Shown in pieces: positions 1 to 13,202 of a stretch of DNA of 25,598 bases. Source of the DNA: a virus. Lineage: Duplodnaviria; Heunggongvirae; Uroviricota; Caudoviricetes. A model generated the notes under the pieces. It searched no databases. It saw nothing but the letters and a program-made list of their open reading frames with translations, and was not told the origin of the DNA. Position 1 is the stretch's first letter. Each line of letters begins with the position of its first letter. The position numbers and the translations under genes were made by a program. The DNA is taken from IMG/VR virus record IMGVR_UViG_2778261153_000008; one strand, 5' to 3'.

Positions 1-1053
1 TTACGGGGTAATGCCAACCGCTGCCGCCACTTTGTCGCCACTTGGCAGCGTTGCCAGAGGATTGAAACGGAGCGCCGTTTCCAGATGATCCGGTGCCAGA
101 TGTGCGTAACGCATAGTCATTTTTATATCGTGGTGTCCGAGAATTTTTTGTAAGGCCAGAATGTTTCCACCCGACATCATGAAGTGCGCCGCAAACGTAT
201 GGCGCAGAACGTGTGTGAGTTGACCGCGAGGGAGCACGATAGACGTTTTTTCCATCACGGATAAAAATTGAAAATAGCAGTCTGTGAAGAAATTGAACCC
301 ATCAAGCGCCATGATCTCTTCGTAAAGCTCTTTACTGATAGGGATGCTTCTGTTTTTCTTCCCCTTCGTTCTGACAAAGGTAATTCGGTATTTGGTCACC
401 TGTGAGCGAGTAAGATTTACGGCTTCACGCCAGCGTGCGCCTGTGCTTAAGCATATCTTAACTACCAGTGCCAGAATTGGGTCCTGACGTTTGCAATCAG
501 CCAGCAATTCAACAATCTGCTCATGGGTAAGCCATGCCATCTCTTTTTCTGCGATGGTGAATTTTCGCATGTTCTCCAGTGGGTTCGGATACGACCATTC
601 GCCCAGACGGGATAGTTCGCTAAAAACACTACTTAGATAGCTTTGCTCCAGGTTAATGGTGACCGGGCTTGCTCCTTTCTTCCATTTCTCGCTGAAGTAG
701 ATCTCGCCTGTCAGGCGTTTATCTCGATAGTGGGCAAACATTTTAGAGGTGAGATCGGTTGCAAGAGGATTGCCCAGAGCGTCAACCATCAACAGCAATT
801 TGTCATAGACATGCTGCCCAGCTGTCAGAGATTTACCATGTAGTTTGAACCATAGTTCAACCACGTCTTTCAGTGTTCGACGATCCACTGATTCACCCAG
901 CCAGGGCTTTGCTTCGGTTTCTTCCATCGTGTGACGCTCAAAAGCCAGAGCTTCGCCTTTGGTGGCGAATTGTTTACGCACACGACGTCCACTACGTCCG
1001 GCGGGGTAACATTCGCAAAGCCATTTTCCTGTGGTGAGTTTTCGTACTGCCAT
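1..1053 (-). CDS. int: Phage integrase, tyrosine recombinase (P2/186 family)
   Basis: 350-aa ORF; C-terminal tyrosine-recombinase signature (LRHTFAAHF ... GHHDIKMTMRYAHL); sits at prophage end beside the immunity region; stop codon at window positions 1-3 so the gene appears complete. Confidence 0.9.
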   Translation of the reverse strand: MAVRKLTTGKWLCECYPAGRSGRRVRKQFATKGEALAFERHTMEETEAKPWLGESVDRRTLKDVVELWFKLHGKSLTAGQHVYDKLLLMVDALGNPLATDLTSKMFAHYRDKRLTGEIYFSEKWKKGASPVTINLEQSYLSSVFSELSRLGEWSYPNPLENMRKFTIAEKEMAWLTHEQIVELLADCKRQDPILALVVKICLSTGARWREAVNLTRSQVTKYRITFVRTKGKKNRSIPISKELYEEIMALDGFNFFTDCYFQFLSVMEKTSIVLPRGQLTHVLRHTFAAHFMMSGGNILALQKILGHHDIKMTMRYAHLAPDHLETALRFNPLATLPSGDKVAAAVGITP

Positions 1054-1078
1054 AAAAAAGCCCTCATATCAGAGGGCT
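1054..1078 (-). terminator. Rho-independent terminator-like hairpin directly abutting the int start codon
   Basis: On the minus strand: A-GCCCTC-TGATAT-GAGGGC-TTTTTT followed immediately by the int ATG; GC-rich 6-7 bp stem, 6-nt loop, T6 tract. The 3' arm GAGGG doubles as the only plausible Shine-Dalgarno for int. Confidence 0.6.
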
Positions 1079-1136
1079 AAATTTAACTGTATATACAACC
1101 AGTAATCAATGTGTGATTACTATGAAACATACATTG

Positions 1137-2813
1137 CTAAGCAACATGCAGTTCATCGTTGGCGGAAGTTGCTGCTTTGCGCTCTTGCTCAATCGCCAGT
1201 GACTCTCTATATTCTTTCGCTTCCGCAAACATTGTCCATTGTGCGTTGATGTTCATATCTTCAATAACAGACTTAATTTCTTTAATATTTACGTTGAAAA
1301 ACTCTTTTCGTGAGTTAATTTTATTGACCTGTTTTTCGTTGAAGACTTTATGCAGATGATTTTCTAATGATGGTGCATCATCACTATAAATCATCGCATG
1401 AACATCGAACGAAAAAGGAACACTAGCATCACCGAGTTCACGAACACGATCAAGTGGTTCAAGGCGGCGTGTCATTCCAATTTTATATACATCTTCGCCA
1501 AATGAGCCAATATTACTAATTATATAAACGTGGCCTGATCTAGTTTGTTGAGCCATAGAAATAGCTCGTTGGTTTTTAGCTTCAGCTTCTTCATATTTTA
1601 ACTGTAGTTCAGCTATTTTTTGCTCTAAAGCTAAGCGTTGTTCTTCATTTGCAAGCATAAGCTCTTTTGTTGCTTTATTTATAGCTTGCTGAATAGCTTT
1701 CTCTTCTTTTTCAGCTTCTTTTATCGCTTTTTCATACTCCCTACGAGCTCTTTCCTCTTCACGAAGTTGTTCTTTAATCCTTCTTTGCTCTTCTTTTTCT
1801 TCGAGCATAATTTCATTAACTGCAACTCCCCATTTTAGCTCGTTGAGTCGAGCTTGAAGATAGATGTCACTTATTTTTGCGGACCTAAAGGCAGAACCAT
1901 TGTAATTTACAAGTTGAAACGCATCTTTTATCTCTTGGGAAAGTTTTCCAAAATTGTTGTGTTTGACTTTTGATAAAATACTGTCAACTCTTCCATTGAA
2001 GGCATCTAAAACAAAGTTGATAGCAGTATTACGCCTGTTTTGTTCGACATAATCACACGAAGCAGCTTTATTAGTTTTTATTAATGATTTTGTTAACTCC
2101 CTGGCTTTTTGTAATTCCTTACCTGCATCTGTAAACTCATAATTTTCTGCCAATTCATCGAGAACGCTACGGTTAGGGATGATCCATTCATCACCATAAC
2201 CTTCAATTTTATTTTTCATTGATTTGGCAACTGCTTCATATTTTTCTGCAAACTCTTTAGCTTCATATGCTGAACCAGCAATCTCTTTTGCTCTTTCTTC
2301 TGCATCGGAAATAATTTTCACTGCATTGTCATTAGCATTTGAGATCAGCTCATTTGCTTTACTATTGGCATTATCAAGACGTTCTTTAGCTTTCAGGCGT
2401 GCATCGCGAGCGTCTTTAGTAATTGCTATAGCTTCGCTATTAGCGTTGCTTATTTTTATCTGAGCTTGATAATTTGCTTCGTTTACTGTCTTAGCAGCCT
2501 TTATTTGGGCTTCTTCTATTTTTTGCCTGGCTATTGAGTCTGCATTTTTTATCTTATTCTCTGCTTCCATCACTGCGCTGTGCAATTCTACGTATTGCCA
2601 TAATGGCGCAGCTCGTCCTTCAAGCTCTGATAGATCTCGTACAGTCTGTGCTAATTCTTCTTGATTTTCTTTCAGTTGGTTGGAAAGGGCTATGTTGTTA
2701 GCTGTCAAGGTATTTATAGCCGCTTTATGTTTTTTGCTTTGCTTAAATAATATTACAGCTAGAATGGGGGCGAGAAATGCTAATAAGAATATAACGATGG
2801 AAAATGAATTCAT
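1137..2813 (-). CDS. Membrane-anchored coiled-coil protein with C-terminal T5orf172/MUG113 (GIY-YIG-like) nuclease domain; DUF4041-like architecture; cargo gene
   Basis: 558 aa. N-terminal hydrophobic helix (FSIVIFLLAFLAPILAVILF), long K/E/A-rich low-complexity middle region predicted coiled coil, C-terminal block GHVYIISNIGSFGEDVYKIGMTRRLEPLDRVRELGDASVPFSF...EFF matching the recalled T5orf172 consensus. Strongly AT-rich versus phage backbone. Start 20 nt downstream of cI stop, SD AAGGA; co-oriented with cI and int. Confidence 0.75.
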   Translation of the reverse strand: MNSFSIVIFLLAFLAPILAVILFKQSKKHKAAINTLTANNIALSNQLKENQEELAQTVRDLSELEGRAAPLWQYVELHSAVMEAENKIKNADSIARQKIEEAQIKAAKTVNEANYQAQIKISNANSEAIAITKDARDARLKAKERLDNANSKANELISNANDNAVKIISDAEERAKEIAGSAYEAKEFAEKYEAVAKSMKNKIEGYGDEWIIPNRSVLDELAENYEFTDAGKELQKARELTKSLIKTNKAASCDYVEQNRRNTAINFVLDAFNGRVDSILSKVKHNNFGKLSQEIKDAFQLVNYNGSAFRSAKISDIYLQARLNELKWGVAVNEIMLEEKEEQRRIKEQLREEERARREYEKAIKEAEKEEKAIQQAINKATKELMLANEEQRLALEQKIAELQLKYEEAEAKNQRAISMAQQTRSGHVYIISNIGSFGEDVYKIGMTRRLEPLDRVRELGDASVPFSFDVHAMIYSDDAPSLENHLHKVFNEKQVNKINSRKEFFNVNIKEIKSVIEDMNINAQWTMFAEAKEYRESLAIEQERKAATSANDELHVA

Positions 2814-2833: not shown

Positions 2834-3430
2834 TTAATTTGAAACTATTGTACTTCTTATACAAGCAACTACTTCAATATCAGAAAATGCACATTCAAAG
2901 CTATTCTCTGTACTTGTAATTTTAATCATACCTTTTGGAAGCTTTGTGATTTTTCGAATGGAATAGGTTCCGTCGATGTTGATTAACCAGTGCCCATCAA
3001 GTACTTCAGAAAATTTTTGATCACAAATGTATGTGACGAGCCCATCCTGAATAACAATTGGTGATGAAAGATTTGCAGGAAGAAATGATGAATCGAAGAC
3101 ATATGAACCATCTTCAATCATTTTGCCTGCGGTAAGGCGAAACTTGGCAAGCTCTTCTGTAGCTGCTGTCAGCGAGCTTTGCTTAAGGCCTTGCCCGGTG
3201 GTTAACCATTTCAGTGAGGTTCCTGTTTCAAGAGCACATTGGATTATCCAGTCTGCAGGAAACGTATCCCGCAAATACCTGTTCGCCAGAGTGCTTTTTG
3301 ATACTTCCAAGTGATCAGCTAAAGCCTGTCGTGTCGTAAAGCCATAAGCTTCGACTAATCGCTCAATCGCAGCCTTACCACCTTTATTGGGATTTATTTT
3401 GATCTCATTTGGGTACTTTGATGTTGACAT
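2834..3430 (-). CDS. cI: Immunity repressor, phage 186 CI-like
   Basis: 198-aa ORF divergent from apl/cII; N-terminal HTH-like region (AYGFTTRQALADHLEVSKSTLANRYLR); size and position match 186 CI (about 190 aa). Start codon overlaps the -35 of the rightward promoter. Confidence 0.8.
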   Translation of the reverse strand: MSTSKYPNEIKINPNKGGKAAIERLVEAYGFTTRQALADHLEVSKSTLANRYLRDTFPADWIIQCALETGTSLKWLTTGQGLKQSSLTAATEELAKFRLTAGKMIEDGSYVFDSSFLPANLSSPIVIQDGLVTYICDQKFSEVLDGHWLINIDGTYSIRKITKLPKGMIKITSTENSFECAFSDIEVVACIRSTIVSN

Positions 3431-3779: not shown

Positions 3780-4289
3780 ATGTTTGATTACCAAGTTTCC
3801 AAACATCCACATTTTGACGAAGCCTGTCGTGCATTCGCACTGCGCCACAACCTGGTGCAACTGGCAGAACGTGCAGGCATGAATGTACAGATTCTGCGGA
3901 ACAAGCTGAACCCAGCTCAACCTCATTTATTAACCGCACCAGAAATCTGGTTGCTTACCGATCTGACTGAAGATTCAACGCTGGTAGATGGCTTTCTGGC
4001 ACAGATTCACTGCCTGCCATGTGTACCGATTAATGAGGTGGCAAAAGAGAAACTGCCGCATTATGTCATGAGTGCAACTGCAGAGATCGGGCGTGTTGCT
4101 GCAGGTGCGGTATCCGGCGATGTAAAAACCAGTGCAGGTCGTCGTGATGCTATCAGCAGCATTAACTCTGTAACACGGCTGATGGCGCTGGCCGCTGTTT
4201 CATTGCAGGCCCGTTTACAGGCTAATCCTGCGATGGCGAGTGCAGTTGATACCGTTACTGGCCTCGGTGCTTCATTCGGTTTGCTGTGA
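3780..4289 (+). CDS. cII: CII-like transcriptional activator (phage 186 CII family)
   Basis: 169-aa product from ATG 3780 ([19 protein letters not shown]...); size and position after apl match 186 CII; recalled sequence similarity. Confidence 0.7.
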
Positions 4290-5103: not shown

Positions 5104-5330
5104 TGGCTGATGCAATGGATCTCGTACAGCAGCGCGTTGAAGAAGAACGCCAGCGCCATATCCGTGCTGCCCGTGCCAAAACACCGGGCGTGTCACGCGT
5201 ACTTTGCATTGAATGTGAAGCGCCAATTCCGCCAGCACGACGCCGCGCCATTCCGGGAGTGCAGCTTTGCATTACCTGTCAGGAAATCGCAGAACTGAAA
5301 GGCAAACATTACAACGGAGGTGCTGTATGA
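5103..5330 (+). CDS. TraR/DksA-family C4 zinc-finger protein
   Basis: 75 aa with CxxC-(17)-CxxC pattern (CIECEAP...CITCQE), typical of small phage TraR/DksA-like zinc fingers; translationally coupled to flanking genes. Confidence 0.7.
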   Translation: MADAMDLVQQRVEEERQRHIRAARAKTPGVSRVLCIECEAPIPPARRRAIPGVQLCITCQEIAELKGKHYNGGAV

Positions 5331-6175
5331 GCACCATCTTGAAATGGGCGGGAAATAAAACGGCCATTATGGCAGAACTGAAAAAATACCTTCCTGCTGG
5401 CCCGCGACTGGTTGAACCTTTCGCGGGTTCCTGTGCAGTGATGATGGAGACGGATTACCCCAGCTATCTTGTTGCGGATATTAATCCTGATTTAATCAAC
5501 CTCTATAAAAAGGTTGCCGCTGATTGTGAATCGTTTATATCTCGCGCCAGAGTTTTATTTGAGAACGCAAACAGGGAGATGGCTTATTACAACATAAGGC
5601 AGGAGTTTAATTACTCAACTGAAATTACTGATTTCATGAAAGCAGTATATTTCCTGTATCTCAATCGTCACGGTTACCGTGGTTTATGTCGCTATAACAA
5701 GAGCGGGCATTTCAACATTCCCTACGGTAATTATAAAAATCCGTATTTCCCTGAAAAAGAAATTCGTGCATTTGCAGAAAAAGCCCAGCGGGCAACATTT
5801 ATCTGCGCCAGCTTCGATGAAACGCTGGCAATGTTGCACGCGGGGGATGTTGTGTATTGCGATCCGCCTTATGACGGTACGTTTTCCGGTTATCACACTG
5901 ACGGCTTCACTGAAGATGACCAGTATCACCTGGCATCCGTTCTTGAACATCGGTCATCAGAAGGACATCCGGTCATTGTTTCTAACAGTGACACATCCCT
6001 GATCCGCTCGCTGTATCGCAATTTCACTCACCACTACATCAAGGCAAAACGCAGCATTGGCGTGTCAGCTGGCGAGAGTAAATCTGCAACAGAAATCATT
6101 GCCACCAAATCAGCTGGGTGGTTTGGTGTCGATTTTGCCAGCGGCTCTGACCGTACCGTTGAGGTACGCGCATGA
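5327..6175 (+). CDS. dam: DNA adenine methyltransferase (Dam-like, N6-adenine MTase)
   Basis: ATG 5327 (overlaps preceding stop as ATGA); N-terminal AdoMet motif (KWAGNK ... EPFAGSCAV) and catalytic DPPY motif ([11 protein letters not shown]). Confidence 0.85.
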
Positions 6176-9713: not shown

Positions 9714-9733
9714 TACTGTAAATATAAACAGTG
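9714..9733. promoter_or_regulatory. LexA operator (SOS box) at promoter of downstream operon
   Basis: TACTGTAAATATAAACAGTG matches the CTGT-N8-ACAG LexA consensus (TACTGTATATATATACAGTA) at 17 of 20 positions; lies 40 bp upstream of ATG 9774 in an AT-rich intergenic region; a weaker half-site (ACAG at 9743-9746) follows. Confidence 0.75.
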
Positions 9734-9773
9734 GTTATGTATACAGTATTGCTTTGGTGTCATAGGAGGAAAG

Positions 9774-9962
9774 ATGCAGGACTATTTTTTGGAGTCTTTG
9801 AAGCTCCAGCGCATTGATTTTTTTCTTAAGCTTGTAGCGGCTAGTGAGTGTAGTGATGAAGAGAAGGGGCTGGCTTTGCAGTGGGTTTCTGAACTGACTG
9901 ATGAACTCATGGCAAAAATCAGAAGCCACGAATACAACCGCTCAATGGATGTCATCAGCTGA
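9774..9962 (+). CDS. Small SOS-operon protein, hypothetical (possibly N-terminal part of a Tum-like antirepressor)
   Basis: 62-aa ORF with strong SD (AGGAGG) 5 nt upstream; first gene after the LexA box; overlaps the upstream open frame of the DinI-like gene. Confidence 0.5.
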   Translation: MQDYFLESLKLQRIDFFLKLVAASECSDEEKGLALQWVSELTDELMAKIRSHEYNRSMDVIS

Positions 9963-9972
9963 GGTGACTTTT

Positions 9973-10206
9973 ATGCGCATTGAAATAATGATCGATAAAG
10001 AGCAGAAGATTAGCCAGTCTACCCTGGACGCCCTTGAATCCGAGCTTTACCGCAATCTGCGCCCCCTGTATCCCAAAACGGTAATCCGTATCCGTAAAGG
10101 TAGCTCTAACGGTGTGGAACTGACCGGACTGCAACTGGACGAAGAAAGAAAACAAGTGATGAAAATTATGCAGAAGGTGTGGGAAGACGACAGCTGGCTG
10201 CATTGA
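9973..10206 (+). CDS. DinI-like protein (Tum C-terminal-like, SOS-inducible)
   Basis: 77-aa product MRIEIMIDKEQ...KVWEDDSWLH resembles E. coli DinI in length and in N-terminal MRIE and C-terminal W-x-DD-W motifs; SD GAGGTG 6 nt upstream; downstream of LexA box. Confidence 0.7.
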   Translation: MRIEIMIDKEQKISQSTLDALESELYRNLRPLYPKTVIRIRKGSSNGVELTGLQLDEERKQVMKIMQKVWEDDSWLH

Positions 10207-11483: not shown

Positions 11484-13202
11484 ATGCATCCTGTTTTAAA
11501 CAGATATATTCAAGATTTAGCGAGTACACTTGATATAGCAGAAGAGCAAGATAAGTTATTTGAATATTTTTGCAATTTTGTTGTTACATCCAAAAATTAT
11601 CTTGGCCGATTTAATCCTGTCGACATTACGACTCAAGAAGATGATGCATCAATTGATGGCTTGGCGGTTCTAATAGATAGTGAGATCATACTTACCCAAG
11701 AGGACGCTATTGCTGCTTTCGAAAGTCACAAATCGTCATTGCCTGTAGAACTTTTGGTTATTCAAGCTAAATCAGGAGAAACCTTCCGGAAAGATAAAAT
11801 AGCTAATTTTAATTTGGGGTTGCAGGATTTATTCAGTTTGGACCCGAAACTACCTAATGGAAAGTACAATAAAGAAATTATAAAAATATTAAGTGTTATC
11901 ATCGATAATTTGAGAAAAGTCAAGAATAAACTTCCTGATATAAAGGTTTATTTTTGCACAAGCGGTGTCTATTCAAAAGAAAGAGAAATAGAAGCTTCTT
12001 TTAAGATTATTGAAGAAACTTGTAAAGGGGCAGATCTGTTTGGTGAAGTTGAGGTTAGCCCATTAGGTCGTAGCGAACTAATGAAATTGTGGCGCTCAAT
12101 AACCGAAAAAAATGAGGCTACTTTAGAGTTCATAAATTTCATGGGCATCAATGAAATGCCTGGAATTCCTCAAGCATATATTACAACAATAAAAGCTAAG
12201 GAGTTTATTGAAAAAGTTGCGATGGATGAAGATCGCAAAATTCGAGAGGAGGTATTTGATGAAAATGTACGAGCATTTTTAGGTGAAGACAATCCTGTTA
12301 ATAAGGATATTACTAAAACCTTGCAATCTGAAAAATCGAATCAATTCGCTGTGCTAAACAATGGCGTGACCATCATTGCTCCTGAGGTAACCCTCACCCC
12401 AAGTAAAAAAACTATACACATAGCTAATTATCAGATCATTAACGGTTGCCAAACTACCAATACACTATTCAATAACTTTGGAATATTAACGGATGCGACT
12501 GAACTCGTTGTTAAGTTTATACAATCTAGCGAGGTTGATGTCGCAATTGACATTGTAACTGCTACCAATAATCAATCCAAAGTGGAGAGTTCTAGCTTTT
12601 ATGCGTTGAGAGAAAAGTCTAGGATGATACATAAATTTTTTGAAATACAACGGGATGTTGAAGGCAGGGAACACCTTTATTTTGAAAGAAGAGAAGGTGA
12701 GTATCGTGGTAAATCTATCAAAACTACAAAAATATATGACATTGTTGAATTGGCAAGGTGTTTCTTATCTGTATTCAAACAGAGGCCACACAATGCCGCT
12801 ATGTATGTGAAAAAAGTATTAAATGAAAGTAAGGATATATGTTATTTAGATACTGATAACGAATATGCATATTACACAGCAGCTTATATTTGTTATAAAT
12901 ACAGCACGTTGATTAATGGTCGTAAAGCTAATGCTAAGAAATATAATAAGCTACGTTGGCATATTGCTATGCTTTATCCTTGGGTTGTGAGCAAAAGTAT
13001 GGATGTTCCTGCGCCCAATTCAGGAAAGATAACTCCTTTTTGTAATAATATCATGAAAACATTGACAACTGATGAATACGTGGAGAATTTCAAAGAATGT
13101 CAAAAAATAATTGATAAACTTCCATTCCCTACAGATGACCAGATCAAACGAGGAAAATACACCAGCGATCTGAGAACGATGGCAGCAGAACATTTTAAAT
13201 AA
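11484..13202 (+). CDS. Hypothetical 572-aa protein; candidate single-gene anti-phage defence/abortive-infection protein (family unverified, possibly AIPR-like)
   Basis: Long uninterrupted ORF with SD GGAG 6 nt before ATG; very AT-rich compared with flanking packaging genes; own AT-rich upstream region; followed by strong hairpin terminator. No Walker A motif; conserved-looking block ANYQIINGCQTTNT; located between cos and portal gene. Confidence 0.6.
   Translation: MHPVLNRYIQDLASTLDIAEEQDKLFEYFCNFVVTSKNYLGRFNPVDITTQEDDASIDGLAVLIDSEIILTQEDAIAAFESHKSSLPVELLVIQAKSGETFRKDKIANFNLGLQDLFSLDPKLPNGKYNKEIIKILSVIIDNLRKVKNKLPDIKVYFCTSGVYSKEREIEASFKIIEETCKGADLFGEVEVSPLGRSELMKLWRSITEKNEATLEFINFMGINEMPGIPQAYITTIKAKEFIEKVAMDEDRKIREEVFDENVRAFLGEDNPVNKDITKTLQSEKSNQFAVLNNGVTIIAPEVTLTPSKKTIHIANYQIINGCQTTNTLFNNFGILTDATELVVKFIQSSEVDVAIDIVTATNNQSKVESSSFYALREKSRMIHKFFEIQRDVEGREHLYFERREGEYRGKSIKTTKIYDIVELARCFLSVFKQRPHNAAMYVKKVLNESKDICYLDTDNEYAYYTAAYICYKYSTLINGRKANAKKYNKLRWHIAMLYPWVVSKSMDVPAPNSGKITPFCNNIMKTLTTDEYVENFKECQKIIDKLPFPTDDQIKRGKYTSDLRTMAAEHFK

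What the first reader, a model, noticed from the sequence alone, without database searches (positions are those of the whole stretch)
1051..1080. Integrase ribosome-binding site buried in a terminator hairpin
On the minus strand the sequence reads A-GCCCTC-TGATAT-GAGGGC-TTTTTT-ATG(int). This is a canonical intrinsic terminator ending the cI-cargo transcript, with the T-tract directly abutting the int start codon, so the only SD-like element (GAGGG) is the 3' arm of the stem. Transcription from the cI promoter should mostly terminate before int, and any read-through mRNA would have its RBS sequestered. This implies tight transcriptional and translational restriction of integrase, possibly a side effect of the cargo insertion between cI and int.
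Basis: seen in the sequence. Interest (0 to 1): 0.4.

Follow-up and report, generated by a model that had tools for sequence, protein, structure and literature searches.

The report
Terminator hairpin nested in integrase promoter
The hairpin in front of this prophage's integrase gene is real and conserved, but it sits just after a previously unnoticed integrase promoter that carries a DNA-damage (LexA) operator, so it probably blocks only transcripts arriving from upstream genes.

Summary
On the minus strand, AGCCCTC-TGATAT-GAGGGCT (1078..1059) is followed by a run of T and then the int ATG (1053). The only Shine-Dalgarno-like element lies in the 3' arm.

The hairpin does look like the terminator of the cI-defence-gene operon, and it would hide the int ribosome-binding site in read-through RNA. 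It is not a by-product of the cargo insertion. Relatives with other cargo keep a hairpin at this position, with at least 16 different arm sequences. So do relatives in which int follows the late gene ogr.

- a sigma-70-like promoter, TTGATT (-35) and TTAAAT/TAAATT (-10);
- a spacer that holds the best LexA box in the window;
- an inverted repeat of the type bound by the phage 186 activator CII.

The -10 ends 1-2 nt before the 5' arm. Transcripts from this promoter should therefore start inside the arm and lack the hairpin.

Most likely reading: integrase is silent in the lysogen. It is switched on from its own promoter by the SOS response, and probably by CII after infection. The start site, LexA binding and CII activation are inferred, not shown.

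The parts
1..1053 (-). int, a P2/186-family tyrosine integrase of 350 aa; the ATG is at 1053..1051
   Evidence: ORF list. Pfam Int_N and Phage_integrase. The same MAVRKL... start is conserved in relatives.
1054..1059 (-). Run of six T between the stem and the int ATG: the terminator U-tract and the SD-AUG spacer
   Evidence: A T-run of 4 or more occurs only in the cI-cargo-int clade.
1059..1065 (-). 3' arm GAGGGCT, which holds the only SD-like element (GAGG, 8 nt before the ATG)
   Evidence: The SD is mostly paired in 59 of 81 distinct related leaders.
1066..1071 (-). Loop TGATAT
1072..1078 (-). 5' arm AGCCCTC. The predicted int transcription start (about 1073-1075) falls inside it.
   Evidence: The start site is inferred from the -10 position and from phage 186 pE geometry.
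1080..1086 (-). -10 element: TTAAAT (1086..1081, 17-nt spacer) or TAAATT (1085..1080, 18-nt spacer)
   Evidence: By homology with the promoter that the scan tool calls in relatives: TTGACC-18-TAAATT in L010 and TTTACA-16-TAAAAT in L029. The T-A-n-n-n-T pattern is conserved in 114 loci.
1085..1104 (.). LexA (SOS) box AACTGTATATACAACCAGTA, with core CTG-N10-CAG at 1087..1102, filling the promoter spacer
   Evidence: Best hit in the window with a position weight matrix (PWM) of E. coli LexA sites: 25.1 bits against a median of 20.0 for known E. coli sites. In 653 kb of relatives' loci, 37 of the 54 sites scoring at least 12 bits lie at this position.
1104..1109 (-). -35 element TTGATT (TTGACC, TTGACA or TTTACA in relatives)
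1109..1134 (.). Inverted repeat ATGTATG(1134..1128)-N12-CACACAT(1115..1109), of the type bound by phage 186 CII. It begins 2 nt after the cargo stop codon.
   Evidence: The annotated 186 CII site at pE is ATGTTTG-N13-CAAACAT. Relatives carry ATGT(A/T)T(G/A)-N12/13-CA(A/T)ACAT here. In 653 kb the pattern occurs almost only at the cII start and before int. The window copy has 2 mismatches and a spacing one base shorter.
1137..2813 (-). Cargo: a PD-Lambda-1/SNIPE-type defence protein (DUF4041 + T5orf172), 558 aa, co-directional with cI and int
   Evidence: Pfam. PADLOC PD-Lambda-1, 4.7e-120. RefSeq names it 'SNIPE associated domain-containing protein'.
2834..3430 (-). cI, a 186-type immunity repressor and first gene of the leftward operon
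   Evidence: Pfam Phage_CI_repr and Phage_CI_C.
3780..3806 (.). Canonical CII site of the pE-equivalent promoter, ATGTTTG-N13-CAAACAT, inside codons 1-9 of cII
   Evidence: Same sequence type as the annotated 186 site.
3780..4289 (+). cII, the 186-type activator, 69% identical to 186 CII
   Evidence: Pfam Phage_CP76; tblastn.
9714..9748 (+). Tandem LexA boxes of the tum-like SOS operon; a DinI-domain ORF lies at 9901..10206
   Evidence: PWM scores of 23.9 and 17.4 bits. Sequence. Pfam DinI. Equivalent to 186 p95-tum.

Best explanation
The hairpin is the last element of a compact, conserved control module that travels with this lineage of P2/186-like integrase genes. From 5' to 3' on the int strand the module reads:
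- a 186-CII-type inverted repeat;
- a -35 element;
- a LexA box that fills the promoter spacer;
- a -10 element;
- a hairpin whose 3' arm carries the int SD;
- the ATG.

In this clade int lies directly after cI and a defence-gene cargo that has no terminator of its own. Here the hairpin has also acquired a U-tract.

Proposed mechanism:
1. Transcripts of the cI-cargo operon contain both arms. They mostly terminate at the hairpin and U-tract. Any that read through have the int SD locked in the stem.
2. Transcripts from the int promoter start about 7 nt after the -10, which is inside the 5' arm. They cannot form the hairpin, so they are not terminated at it.
3. The int promoter is held off in the lysogen by LexA. 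It is released by the SOS response at the same time as the LexA-controlled tum antirepressor. It is probably boosted by CII, both after infection and after derepression.

Int would therefore be off in the stable lysogen and made when integration or excision is needed.

Shown: the hairpin, its conservation and covariation, the SD in the arm, the LexA-box quality and conservation, the repeat's likeness to the 186 CII site, and the fixed -10-to-arm geometry.

Inferred: termination efficiency, the transcription start site, LexA binding, CII activation, and the effect on Int levels.
For: Hairpin and U-tract anatomy.

The hairpin goes with int, not with the cargo:
- BL21(DE3), AR_452 and Klebsiella phage 4LV2017 have different cargo but keep hairpin + T6 + ATG. 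Two of them use a different 5' arm, ATGCTCTC(C)/(G)GAGGGCAT.
- 114 related loci have the module.

Structure is under selection:
- At least 16 unrelated arm sequences occur. Median z is -3.9 over 81 distinct leaders.
- All 7 pairs show double-sided changes; the covariation score is 0.43 against 0.17 in shuffles and 0.11 or less in slid controls.

Promoter:
- The scan tool calls TTGACC-18-TAAATT in L010, ending 1 nt before the stem, and TTTACA-16-TAAAAT in L029, ending at the stem.
- Where int follows ogr, a canonical terminator sits immediately upstream of the module. The roughly 95-nt module must then contain the int promoter.

LexA box:
- It is the best hit in the window, at 25.1 bits, above the tum promoter boxes.
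- 37 of 54 strong sites in 653 kb lie at this exact position.

CII site:
- The annotated 186 site is ATGTTTG-N13-CAAACAT, ending 35 nt before the pE start.
- The same motif type and spacing occur before int. The pattern is almost exclusive to the cII start and to int upstream regions.
- The isolated Yersinia phage vB_YenM_31.17 has TTGTTTG-N13-CAAACAT before int and ATGTTTG-N13-CAAACAT at its own pE.
- If the window's proximal half-site is placed as at pE, the predicted start is about 1074. The -10 rule gives the same position.

Geometry and accessibility:
- The 5' arm starts 0-5 nt after the -10 in the folded leaders.
- Predicted accessibility of the SD-to-AUG region is higher in promoter-proximal transcripts than in read-through RNA in 73 of 81 leaders (Wilcoxon p = 8e-12).

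U-tract: present in 20 of 26 cI-cargo-int contexts, none of which has an upstream terminator. Present in 0 of 73 ogr-int contexts, of which 49 have an upstream terminator.

SOS context: the tum-like operon has tandem LexA boxes.
Against: - No transcript mapping or binding data exist for any member. I found none in the searchable literature.
- The window's own promoter is mediocre, matching 8 of 12 consensus positions, and the scan tool did not list it.
- The window's CII-like repeat is imperfect: ATGTATG-N12-CACACAT.
- In the window itself, removing the 5' arm raises predicted SD accessibility only from 0.00 to about 0.22. The SD and U-tract re-pair with GGAAAAUGGCUU in codons 9-12. The translational half of the model is therefore weak for this particular sequence.
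- 19 of 81 leaders have no significant hairpin, so the hairpin is not indispensable to the module.
- The U-tract clade is probably monophyletic. Its association with gene order counts as roughly one evolutionary event.
- A high-affinity LexA box in the spacer might block CII activation in undamaged cells. That would leave open how Int is made for lysogenisation.
- The LexA matrix was built from sites recalled from memory.
Confidence: 0.6

Rival explanations
1. The hairpin is simply the terminator of the cI-cargo transcript, possibly brought in or created by the cargo insertion. Int is made only from rare read-through RNA in which the SD is masked. There is no dedicated int promoter.
For: The terminator anatomy is canonical. 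No other terminator lies between the cargo and int. The window's own -35/-10 match is only 8 of 12.
Against: The hairpin is kept next to many unrelated cargos, and in ogr-int phages that already have a terminator upstream. A LexA box and promoter-like hexamers are conserved at a fixed position from 100% down to about 55% Int identity. In ogr-int phages the module is the only sequence between a terminator and int, so it must hold the promoter. Int would have no plausible route to expression at excision.
Confidence: 0.12
2. The int promoter is real, but its transcripts include the whole hairpin because the start lies at or before 1078. The hairpin then acts in cis on int's own mRNA, as a 5' stem-loop that stabilises the message or as a constitutive brake on translation. 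It would not discriminate transcripts by origin.
For: Hairpins without a U-tract that end at or near the ATG (Rahnella type CACATTCTC..GAGAATGTG-ATG) look like translational operators. In several leaders the 5' arm starts 3-5 nt after the -10, so a short residual stem could survive. In the window, SD accessibility stays low even without the arm.
Against: The -10 ends 0-3 nt before most 5' arms, whereas sigma-70 starts normally lie 6-9 nt after the -10. In the window clade, a full hairpin plus U6 on int's own mRNA would terminate the transcript that int needs.
Confidence: 0.15
3. The palindrome works at the DNA level, as a binding site for a phage or host protein (Int, Apl, IHF or CI), rather than as an RNA structure.
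For: It overlaps the initially transcribed region of a regulated promoter, where operators are common.
Against: The arms change completely between lineages while staying complementary, including through G-U pairs, which exist only in RNA. The window's CI-operator-like repeat, TTTGGGTACTT, is absent here. The constant feature is the SD in the 3' arm, not a shared DNA motif.
Confidence: 0.03
4. The CTG-N10-CAG element and the ATGTNT..ANACAT repeat are not LexA and CII sites. They are conserved for another reason, such as a recombination boundary of the cargo slot or a site for another regulator. Int would then be constitutively but weakly transcribed.
For: No binding data exist. The window's repeat deviates from the 186 consensus. 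Vibrio relatives have a CTG-N7-CAG palindrome instead.
Against: The box matches the E. coli LexA consensus better than most chromosomal SOS boxes do, including the AT-rich centre. The repeat matches the annotated 186 CII site in half-site sequence, spacing and distance to the start. Both elements are also kept in ogr-int phages, where there is no cargo boundary.
Confidence: 0.1

Closest known systems
Intrinsic (Rho-independent) terminators of Enterobacteria
   Same: G+C-rich 7-bp stem, 6-nt loop and a U6 tract, placed after the last gene of an operon. Rfam sRNA models that end in terminators give sub-threshold hits here.
   Different: It lies downstream of, and 1-2 nt from, the -10 of the next gene's promoter, so it would be bypassed by transcripts that start there. 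Its 3' arm is the next gene's SD, and its U-tract is the SD-AUG spacer.
IS10/Tn10 (and IS50, IS3) protection from outside transcription: fold-back inhibition of the transposase ribosome-binding site. Davis, Simons & Kleckner 1985, cited in PMC13181058. The detail that the 5' arm lies upstream of the IS10 pIN start is from my own knowledge.
   Same: A recombinase gene of a mobile element. A stem-loop sequesters its translation signals only in RNA that starts upstream, because one arm lies before the element's own transcription start.
   Different: This is a phage integrase, not a transposase. In this clade a U-tract adds termination. The start site here is inferred, not mapped. The promoter is additionally under repressor and activator control.
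Phage lambda pI, the CII-activated int promoter, together with the transcript-origin-dependent fate of int mRNA (sib retroregulation)
   Same: A dedicated int promoter that appears to be activated by the lysogeny activator CII (lambda CII activates int expression: PMC7708051). The expression of int depends on where the transcript started.
   Different: 186-type CII is unrelated to lambda CII. Discrimination is at the 5' end of the message (hairpin arm excluded) rather than the 3' end. LexA control is added.
Phage 186 and P2 lysogenic operons (pL/pE-cI-int; Pc-C-int)
   Same: Same gene family and order, cI then int leftward, with a 186-type CI, Apl, CII and a LexA-controlled tum.
   Different: In 186 the cI stop overlaps the int ATG. 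[quoted passage not shown] In P2, Int comes from the Pc operon (PMC3936717). Here int is uncoupled from cI and has its own regulated promoter.
LexA-repressed integron integrase promoters (intI) (PMC3108266)
   Same: A tyrosine recombinase whose promoter is overlapped by a LexA box, which links recombination to the SOS response.
   Different: The recombinase family branch and the type of element differ. Integrons have no CII site and no origin-discriminating hairpin or terminator.

Membership tests
Intrinsic terminator | Stable G+C-rich stem-loop with a short loop | tested here: met
   7 bp (5 G-C), 6-nt loop, -13.3 kcal/mol, z = -3.84.
Intrinsic terminator | U-rich tract immediately 3' of the stem | tested here: met
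   Six T at 1059..1054. Conserved in 20 of 26 distinct cI-cargo-int contexts but absent from all 73 ogr-int contexts.
Intrinsic terminator | Transcript 3' ends at the U-tract in vivo or in vitro | not testable with these tools
   Needs Term-seq, Northern blots or in vitro transcription.
LexA (SOS) operator of Gammaproteobacteria | Palindrome CTGT-N8-ACAG (CTG-N10-CAG) with an AT-rich centre | tested here: met
   AACTGTATATACAACCAGTA, with one core deviation (CCAG) that is common in E. coli boxes. It scores 25.1 bits against a training median of 20.0 and is the best hit in the window. The matrix was built from sites recalled from memory.
LexA (SOS) operator of Gammaproteobacteria | Overlaps a promoter so that binding would block RNA polymerase | tested here: met
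   It fills the 16-18-nt spacer between the -35 and -10 hexamers.
LexA (SOS) operator of Gammaproteobacteria | Conserved at orthologous positions across taxa | tested here: met
   114 loci from Escherichia to Rahnella, Pantoea and Pectobacterium. 37 of 54 strong sites in 653 kb lie here.
LexA (SOS) operator of Gammaproteobacteria | LexA binding and SOS-dependent derepression | not testable with these tools
   Needs EMSA or ChIP and expression assays in lexA(Ind-) or recA backgrounds.
186-CII-activated promoter (pE type) | 7-bp inverted half-sites ATGTTTG / CAAACAT separated by 13 bp | tested here: inconclusive
   The window has ATGTATG-N12-CACACAT, with 2 mismatches and a spacing one base shorter. 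Relatives fit well, for example L033 ATGTTTG-N12-CAAACAT and L082 TTGTTTG-N13-CAAACAT. Reference site.
186-CII-activated promoter (pE type) | Proximal half-site ends about 35 nt before the transcription start | tested here: inconclusive
   This holds if the start is about 1074 as predicted from the -10. The start is not mapped.
186-CII-activated promoter (pE type) | A cognate CII protein is encoded by the same phage | tested here: met
   cII at 3780..4289, Pfam Phage_CP76, 69% identical to 186 CII. The phage's own pE site is canonical. One ogr-int-type contig also carries cI and cII (L126/L121).
186-CII-activated promoter (pE type) | CII-dependent transcription | not testable with these tools
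   Needs a reporter assay with and without CII.
IS10-type protection against read-through (origin-dependent RBS sequestration) | The SD or start codon is paired in a stem-loop | tested here: met
   GAGG lies in the 3' arm. P(unpaired) is 0.00 in read-through RNA. The SD is mostly paired in 59 of 81 leaders.
IS10-type protection against read-through (origin-dependent RBS sequestration) | The 5' arm lies upstream of the gene's own transcription start | tested here: inconclusive
   The -10 ends 0-3 nt before most 5' arms, so a normal start falls inside the arm. No start site has been mapped.
IS10-type protection against read-through (origin-dependent RBS sequestration) | Own transcripts are translated better than read-through transcripts | tested here: inconclusive
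   Predicted accessibility is higher in 73 of 81 leaders. In the window it rises only from 0.00 to 0.22 for the SD and is unchanged over -15..+3.
Rfam RNA families | Score at or above the family gathering threshold | tested here: not met
   The best hit is RyhB at 30 bits against a threshold of 55. All hits are terminator-driven.

The most novel reading that the evidence does not exclude
A lineage of P2/186-like prophages, whose int 5' region is matched in about one in five complete E. coli genomes, controls integrase through a roughly 85-nt composite switch. The switch is a promoter that is both LexA-repressed and CII-activated. It is nested so tightly against a terminator or SD-sequestering hairpin that only transcripts born at that promoter escape the hairpin. 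This would give 186-like phages a lambda-pI-like second CII promoter, put integrase under direct SOS control, and act as the fixed 3' boundary that lets defence genes be swapped in behind cI without deregulating int.
Probability: 0.4. Interest if true: 0.7.

Novelty: new variant of a known kind. Interest (0 to 1): 0.55.

Why it matters
If the model is right, four things follow.

1. It changes how int regulation is described for a very common group of enterobacterial prophages. Int would not be a passive passenger of the repressor operon, as in P2 and 186. It would be an SOS- and CII-gated gene insulated from that operon.

2. It explains how the cI-int slot can host many different, constitutively expressed anti-phage genes without causing integrase expression in lysogens.

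3. It offers a compact natural part (promoter, operator and an origin-selective terminator in about 85 nt) that may interest synthetic biologists.

4. It makes a simple prediction that can be tested in a standard laboratory strain. BL21(DE3) carries the module in a prophage remnant whose cII is truncated, so LexA control can be tested there alone.

Tried and rejected
- **Cross-clade MAFFT alignment of leaders (A1).** The arms are not in register across lineages, so no single structure line could be scored. I replaced it with per-sequence folding against shuffles and a covariance-model alignment.
- **Alignment A2.** It contained four sequences that I had edited to force register. I discarded it and did not use it for any result.
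- **First version of the U-tract and upstream-terminator count.** It used a regex that stopped at the ATG inside the hairpin loop, so the result is invalid. I redid it with known ATG positions.
- **Promoter scan on the window.** It does not list the int promoter, which matches 8 of 12 positions, below the tool's threshold of 9. The tool does call the homologous promoter in L010 and L029.
- **Rfam.** Nothing reached the gathering score.
- **CI-operator-like repeat TTTGGGTACTT near int.** Absent.
- **PSP3.** cI, then a DUF2511 gene, then int with a 22-nt gap and no module.
- **Phage 186.** cI overlaps int.
- **Vibrio phages kappa and yong1.** No LexA box. The module was seen only in Enterobacterales in this sample.
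- **Whole phage of the ogr-int type in the phage collection, to check for cII.** No close relative is present. One IMG/VR contig (L121/L126) shows cI and cII on the same contig, but its own cII start site is ATGTTTG-N13-CAACAAT.
- **Literature.** Murchland et al. 2014 on 186 CII (PMC4231686) is not held, so the CII site rests on the GenBank annotation of NC_001317.
- **A rightward, antisense promoter using the same LexA box.** No conserved hexamers were seen by eye. Not pursued.
Full report
**1. The observation**

On the minus strand the window reads ...ACAG-TTAAAT-TT-AGCCCTC-TGATAT-GAGGGCT-TTTTT-ATG-GCA....
- The stem pairs 1078..1072 with 1065..1059. It has 7 bp, 5 of them G-C, and a 6-nt loop.
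- Six T follow GAGGGC and touch the int ATG at 1053.
- That ATG is the first start after an in-frame stop and opens a 350-aa P2/186-type integrase.
- GAGG, 8 nt before the ATG, is the only SD-like element, and it lies in the 3' arm.

The hairpin alone folds at -13.3 kcal/mol (z = -3.84), and it forms in a 121-nt context. The consensus scan ranks it first among terminator-like sites. That pattern class is only about twice as frequent as in shuffles, so the scan by itself proves little.

**2. What the window is**

The window is the left end of a 186-like (Peduoviridae) prophage:
- int at 1..1053 (-);
- a 558-aa PD-Lambda-1/SNIPE-type defence gene at 1137..2813 (-);
- a 186-type cI at 2834..3430 (-);
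- rightward apl-like and cII genes;
- a LexA-controlled tum-like operon at about 9714-10206.

Near-identical phages have been isolated: Klebsiella phage KP12 and Escherichia phage vB_EcoM-813R9. The int 5' region is matched in 1113 of 5426 complete E. coli genomes. Only 175 of these share the same cargo.

**3. The hairpin belongs to int, not to the cargo**

BL21(DE3), strain AR_452 and Klebsiella phage 4LV2017 carry different genes between cI and int. All of them keep hairpin + T6 + ATG. BL21 and 4LV2017 use another 5' arm, ATGCTCTC(C) paired with (G)GAGGGCAT.

I collected 77 loci from one genome per species and 80 IMG/VR loci. Together with the window and three prophages fetched from annotated genomes and phage records, 114 loci carry the same upstream module, giving 81 distinct leaders between the -10 and the ATG.
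- 62 leaders fold with z < -2 and 52 with z < -3. The median is -3.9.
- The SD is mostly paired in 59 leaders.
- At least 16 unrelated arm sequences occur. Examples are CCCCCTT/AAGGGGG in Yersinia, CTCTCCTAA/TTAGGAGAG in Kluyvera, CACATTCTC/GAGAATGTG in Rahnella and CACCTG/CAGGTG.

A covariance model built from seven real window-type sequences aligned 47 matches. All 7 pairs change on both sides. 97% of cells pair against 78.5% in shuffles. The covariation score is 0.43, against 0.17 in shuffles (0 of 500 reach it) and 0.11 or less for slid partners. That alignment is fitted to the structure, so these counts lean towards it. The per-sequence shuffle test is independent of that bias.

Nineteen leaders have no significant hairpin, so the hairpin is frequent but not obligatory.

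**4.

Directly upstream lies ACAT-TGATT-A-CTGGTTGTATATACAG-TTAAAT.
- The 20-mer AACTGTATATACAACCAGTA (1085-1104) is the best match in the whole 25.6-kb window to a matrix of E. coli LexA sites. It scores 25.1 bits, against a median of 20.0 for known sites. The next best hits are the tandem boxes of the tum promoter, at 23.9 and 17.4 bits.
- In 653 kb of related loci, 54 sites score at least 12 bits, and 37 of them sit at this exact position.
- The box fills the spacer between a -35 (TTGATT here; TTGACC, TTGACA or TTTACA in relatives) and a -10 that keeps T-A-n-n-n-T.
- The scan tool independently calls this promoter in relatives. In L010 it is TTGACC-18-TAAATT, ending one base before the stem. 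In L029 it is TTTACA-16-TAAAAT, ending at the stem.
- The window's own copy matches only 8 of 12 positions and was not called.

**5. A second arrangement shows that the module holds the int promoter**

In Rahnella, Pantoea, Pectobacterium and related genera, int follows the late genes gpD and ogr on the same strand and is followed by host genes. In 49 of 73 distinct contexts a canonical terminator (for example AGCCCGC-tca-GCGGGC-TTTTT) abuts the module. Between that terminator and the ATG there is nothing but the module.

**6. A CII-type site**

The GenBank record of phage 186 annotates the CII site of pE as G-ATGTTTG-N13-CAAACAT. The site ends 35 nt before the promoter's first base. The window has the same site at its own cII start, 3780-3806.

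Upstream of int, relatives carry ATGT(A/T)T(G/A)-N12/13-CA(A/T)ACAT, with the proximal half-site overlapping the -35 by one base. A relaxed pattern for this repeat hits, in 653 kb on both strands, almost only the cII start and the int upstream region. The isolated Yersinia phage vB_YenM_31.17 has TTGTTTG-N13-CAAACAT before int and ATGTTTG-N13-CAAACAT at its pE.

The window's copy, ATGTATG-N12-CACACAT at 1134..1109, is imperfect. It starts two bases after the cargo stop codon.

If the proximal half-site is placed as at pE, the transcription start falls at about 1074. The -10 rule gives the same position. Phage 186 itself is described as having a single CII-activated promoter (PMC7708051), and its cI stop overlaps int with no such module.

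**7. Geometry and consequences**

In the folded leaders the 5' arm begins 0-5 nt after the -10. A normal sigma-70 start, 6-9 nt after the -10, therefore lies inside the arm. Transcripts from this promoter should lack the hairpin, while transcripts from upstream contain it.

Predicted accessibility of the region from the SD to the AUG is higher in the short transcript in 73 of 81 leaders (p = 8e-12). In the window itself the gain is small. SD P(unpaired) rises from 0.00 to about 0.22, because the SD and U-tract re-pair with GGAAAAUGGCUU in codons 9-12. For this sequence the transcriptional half of the model, escape from termination, is the better supported.

**8. The U-tract**

A T-run of at least 4 before the ATG occurs in 20 of 26 distinct cI-cargo-int contexts. 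None of these has a separate upstream terminator. It occurs in 0 of 73 ogr-int contexts.

However, the U-tract clade is probably a single lineage, so the association counts as about one event. Six cI-cargo-int contexts (Kluyvera, Yersinia, Serratia and Brenneria) have the hairpin without a U-tract. In those, only SD masking would apply.

**9. Proposed logic (inferred)**

- In the lysogen, CI keeps pR off, so there is no CII. LexA sits on the int promoter. The constitutive cI-defence transcript ends at the hairpin. Int is off.
- On DNA damage, LexA cleavage frees both tum and the int promoter. Tum inactivates CI, and pR then supplies Apl and CII. Int and its directionality factor appear together.
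- After infection, CII could drive int for integration, as lambda pI does.
- Whether CII can overcome LexA in undamaged cells is unknown. This is the weakest point of the model.

**10. Comparison with known systems**

- The element meets the sequence definition of an intrinsic terminator.
- It works most like the IS10/IS50 protection against outside transcription. There, a stem sequesters the transposase start signals only in RNA begun upstream of the element's promoter (Davis et al. 1985, cited in PMC13181058; the mechanistic detail is from my own knowledge).
- The dedicated CII-type promoter parallels lambda pI.
- The LexA box parallels integron intI promoters (PMC3108266).
- It differs from P2 and 186, where int is expressed with the repressor (PMC3936717).

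Six of the eight literature searches looked for LexA or CII control of a P2/186-like int and found no description of either. [quoted passage not shown]

**11. Verdict**

The terminator and SD-masking reading is right. The cargo side-effect idea is wrong. The central piece, int's own SOS- and CII-type promoter nested against the hairpin, was missed.
- Novelty: a new variant of known kinds, combining a terminator, origin-dependent RBS masking, a LexA-regulated recombinase and a CII-type promoter in one compact module.
- Nothing here is experimentally shown. The start site is the decisive unknown.

Noticed in passing
window 1137-2813 (-); L008, L009, L013, L015, L019, L022, L024, L025, L076, L082 between cI and int: The slot between cI and int is a swap site for anti-phage genes. 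The window carries PD-Lambda-1/SNIPE. Relatives carry PDC-S20/KAP NTPase, AbiU/AIPR, HEC-01, PDC-M18A, an AriA/AriB-like pair, a HEPN protein, unknown genes, or only a 63-aa ORF in BL21(DE3). The int control module forms its fixed boundary, starting 2 nt after the cargo stop codon.
   Followed up: partly
window 11484-13202 (+): A second defence-like gene lies in the classical P2 hotspot region: a 572-aa AbiU/AIPR protein (PADLOC 9e-107, Pfam AIPR).
   Followed up: partly
window 9714-10206 (+): This is the equivalent of the 186 p95-tum SOS operon. Two overlapping LexA boxes (9714-9733 and 9729-9748) are followed by a 62-aa ORF and a 101-aa DinI-domain ORF.
   Followed up: partly
L029 ~2707, L031 ~3125, L032/L034/L039 ~3601 (minus strand): A third class of CII-type inverted repeat, TTGTATG-N13-CATACAT, lies 400-1300 nt upstream of int on the opposite strand in Rahnella-type prophages. 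It may mark another CII-controlled promoter.
   Followed up: no
window 1101-1121 (-): An AT-rich hairpin, AGTAATCA-CACAT-TGATTACT, overlaps the -35 and the proximal CII-like half-site. It is predicted to form in read-through RNA. It is found only in the window type and not in relatives, so it is probably incidental.
   Followed up: partly
window 3780-3806: The pE-type CII site is encoded by codons 1-9 of cII itself (M-F-D-Y-Q-V-S-K-H). The activator's binding site is therefore constrained by its own N-terminal coding sequence.
   Followed up: no
L033, L029 and most of L084-L163: In many Rahnella, Pantoea and Pectobacterium prophages, int follows gpD-ogr on the same strand and reads out toward host genes (yebY/copD/copC side). 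In 186, int and the gpD-B (ogr homologue) late genes lie at opposite ends of the prophage. Here they are adjacent, so attP must lie on the other side of int than in 186.
   Followed up: partly
L165 (E. coli Ecol_517) int leader: The hairpin is a hybrid, with a window-type 5' arm (AGCCCTC) and a BL21-type 3' flank (GAGGGCAT). The base pair at the foot of the stem is lost. This suggests recombination within the loop or arm region.
   Followed up: no
L168 2760-2790 (Vibrio phage vB_ValM-yong1): The Vibrio relative has a different palindrome, ATACTG-CTTATAA-CAGTAT (CTG-N7-CAG), upstream of int instead of a LexA box.
   Followed up: no
window 5267-6175 (+): A Dam-type N6-adenine methyltransferase (Pfam MethyltransfD12, 6e-76) lies in the early region.
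   Followed up: no
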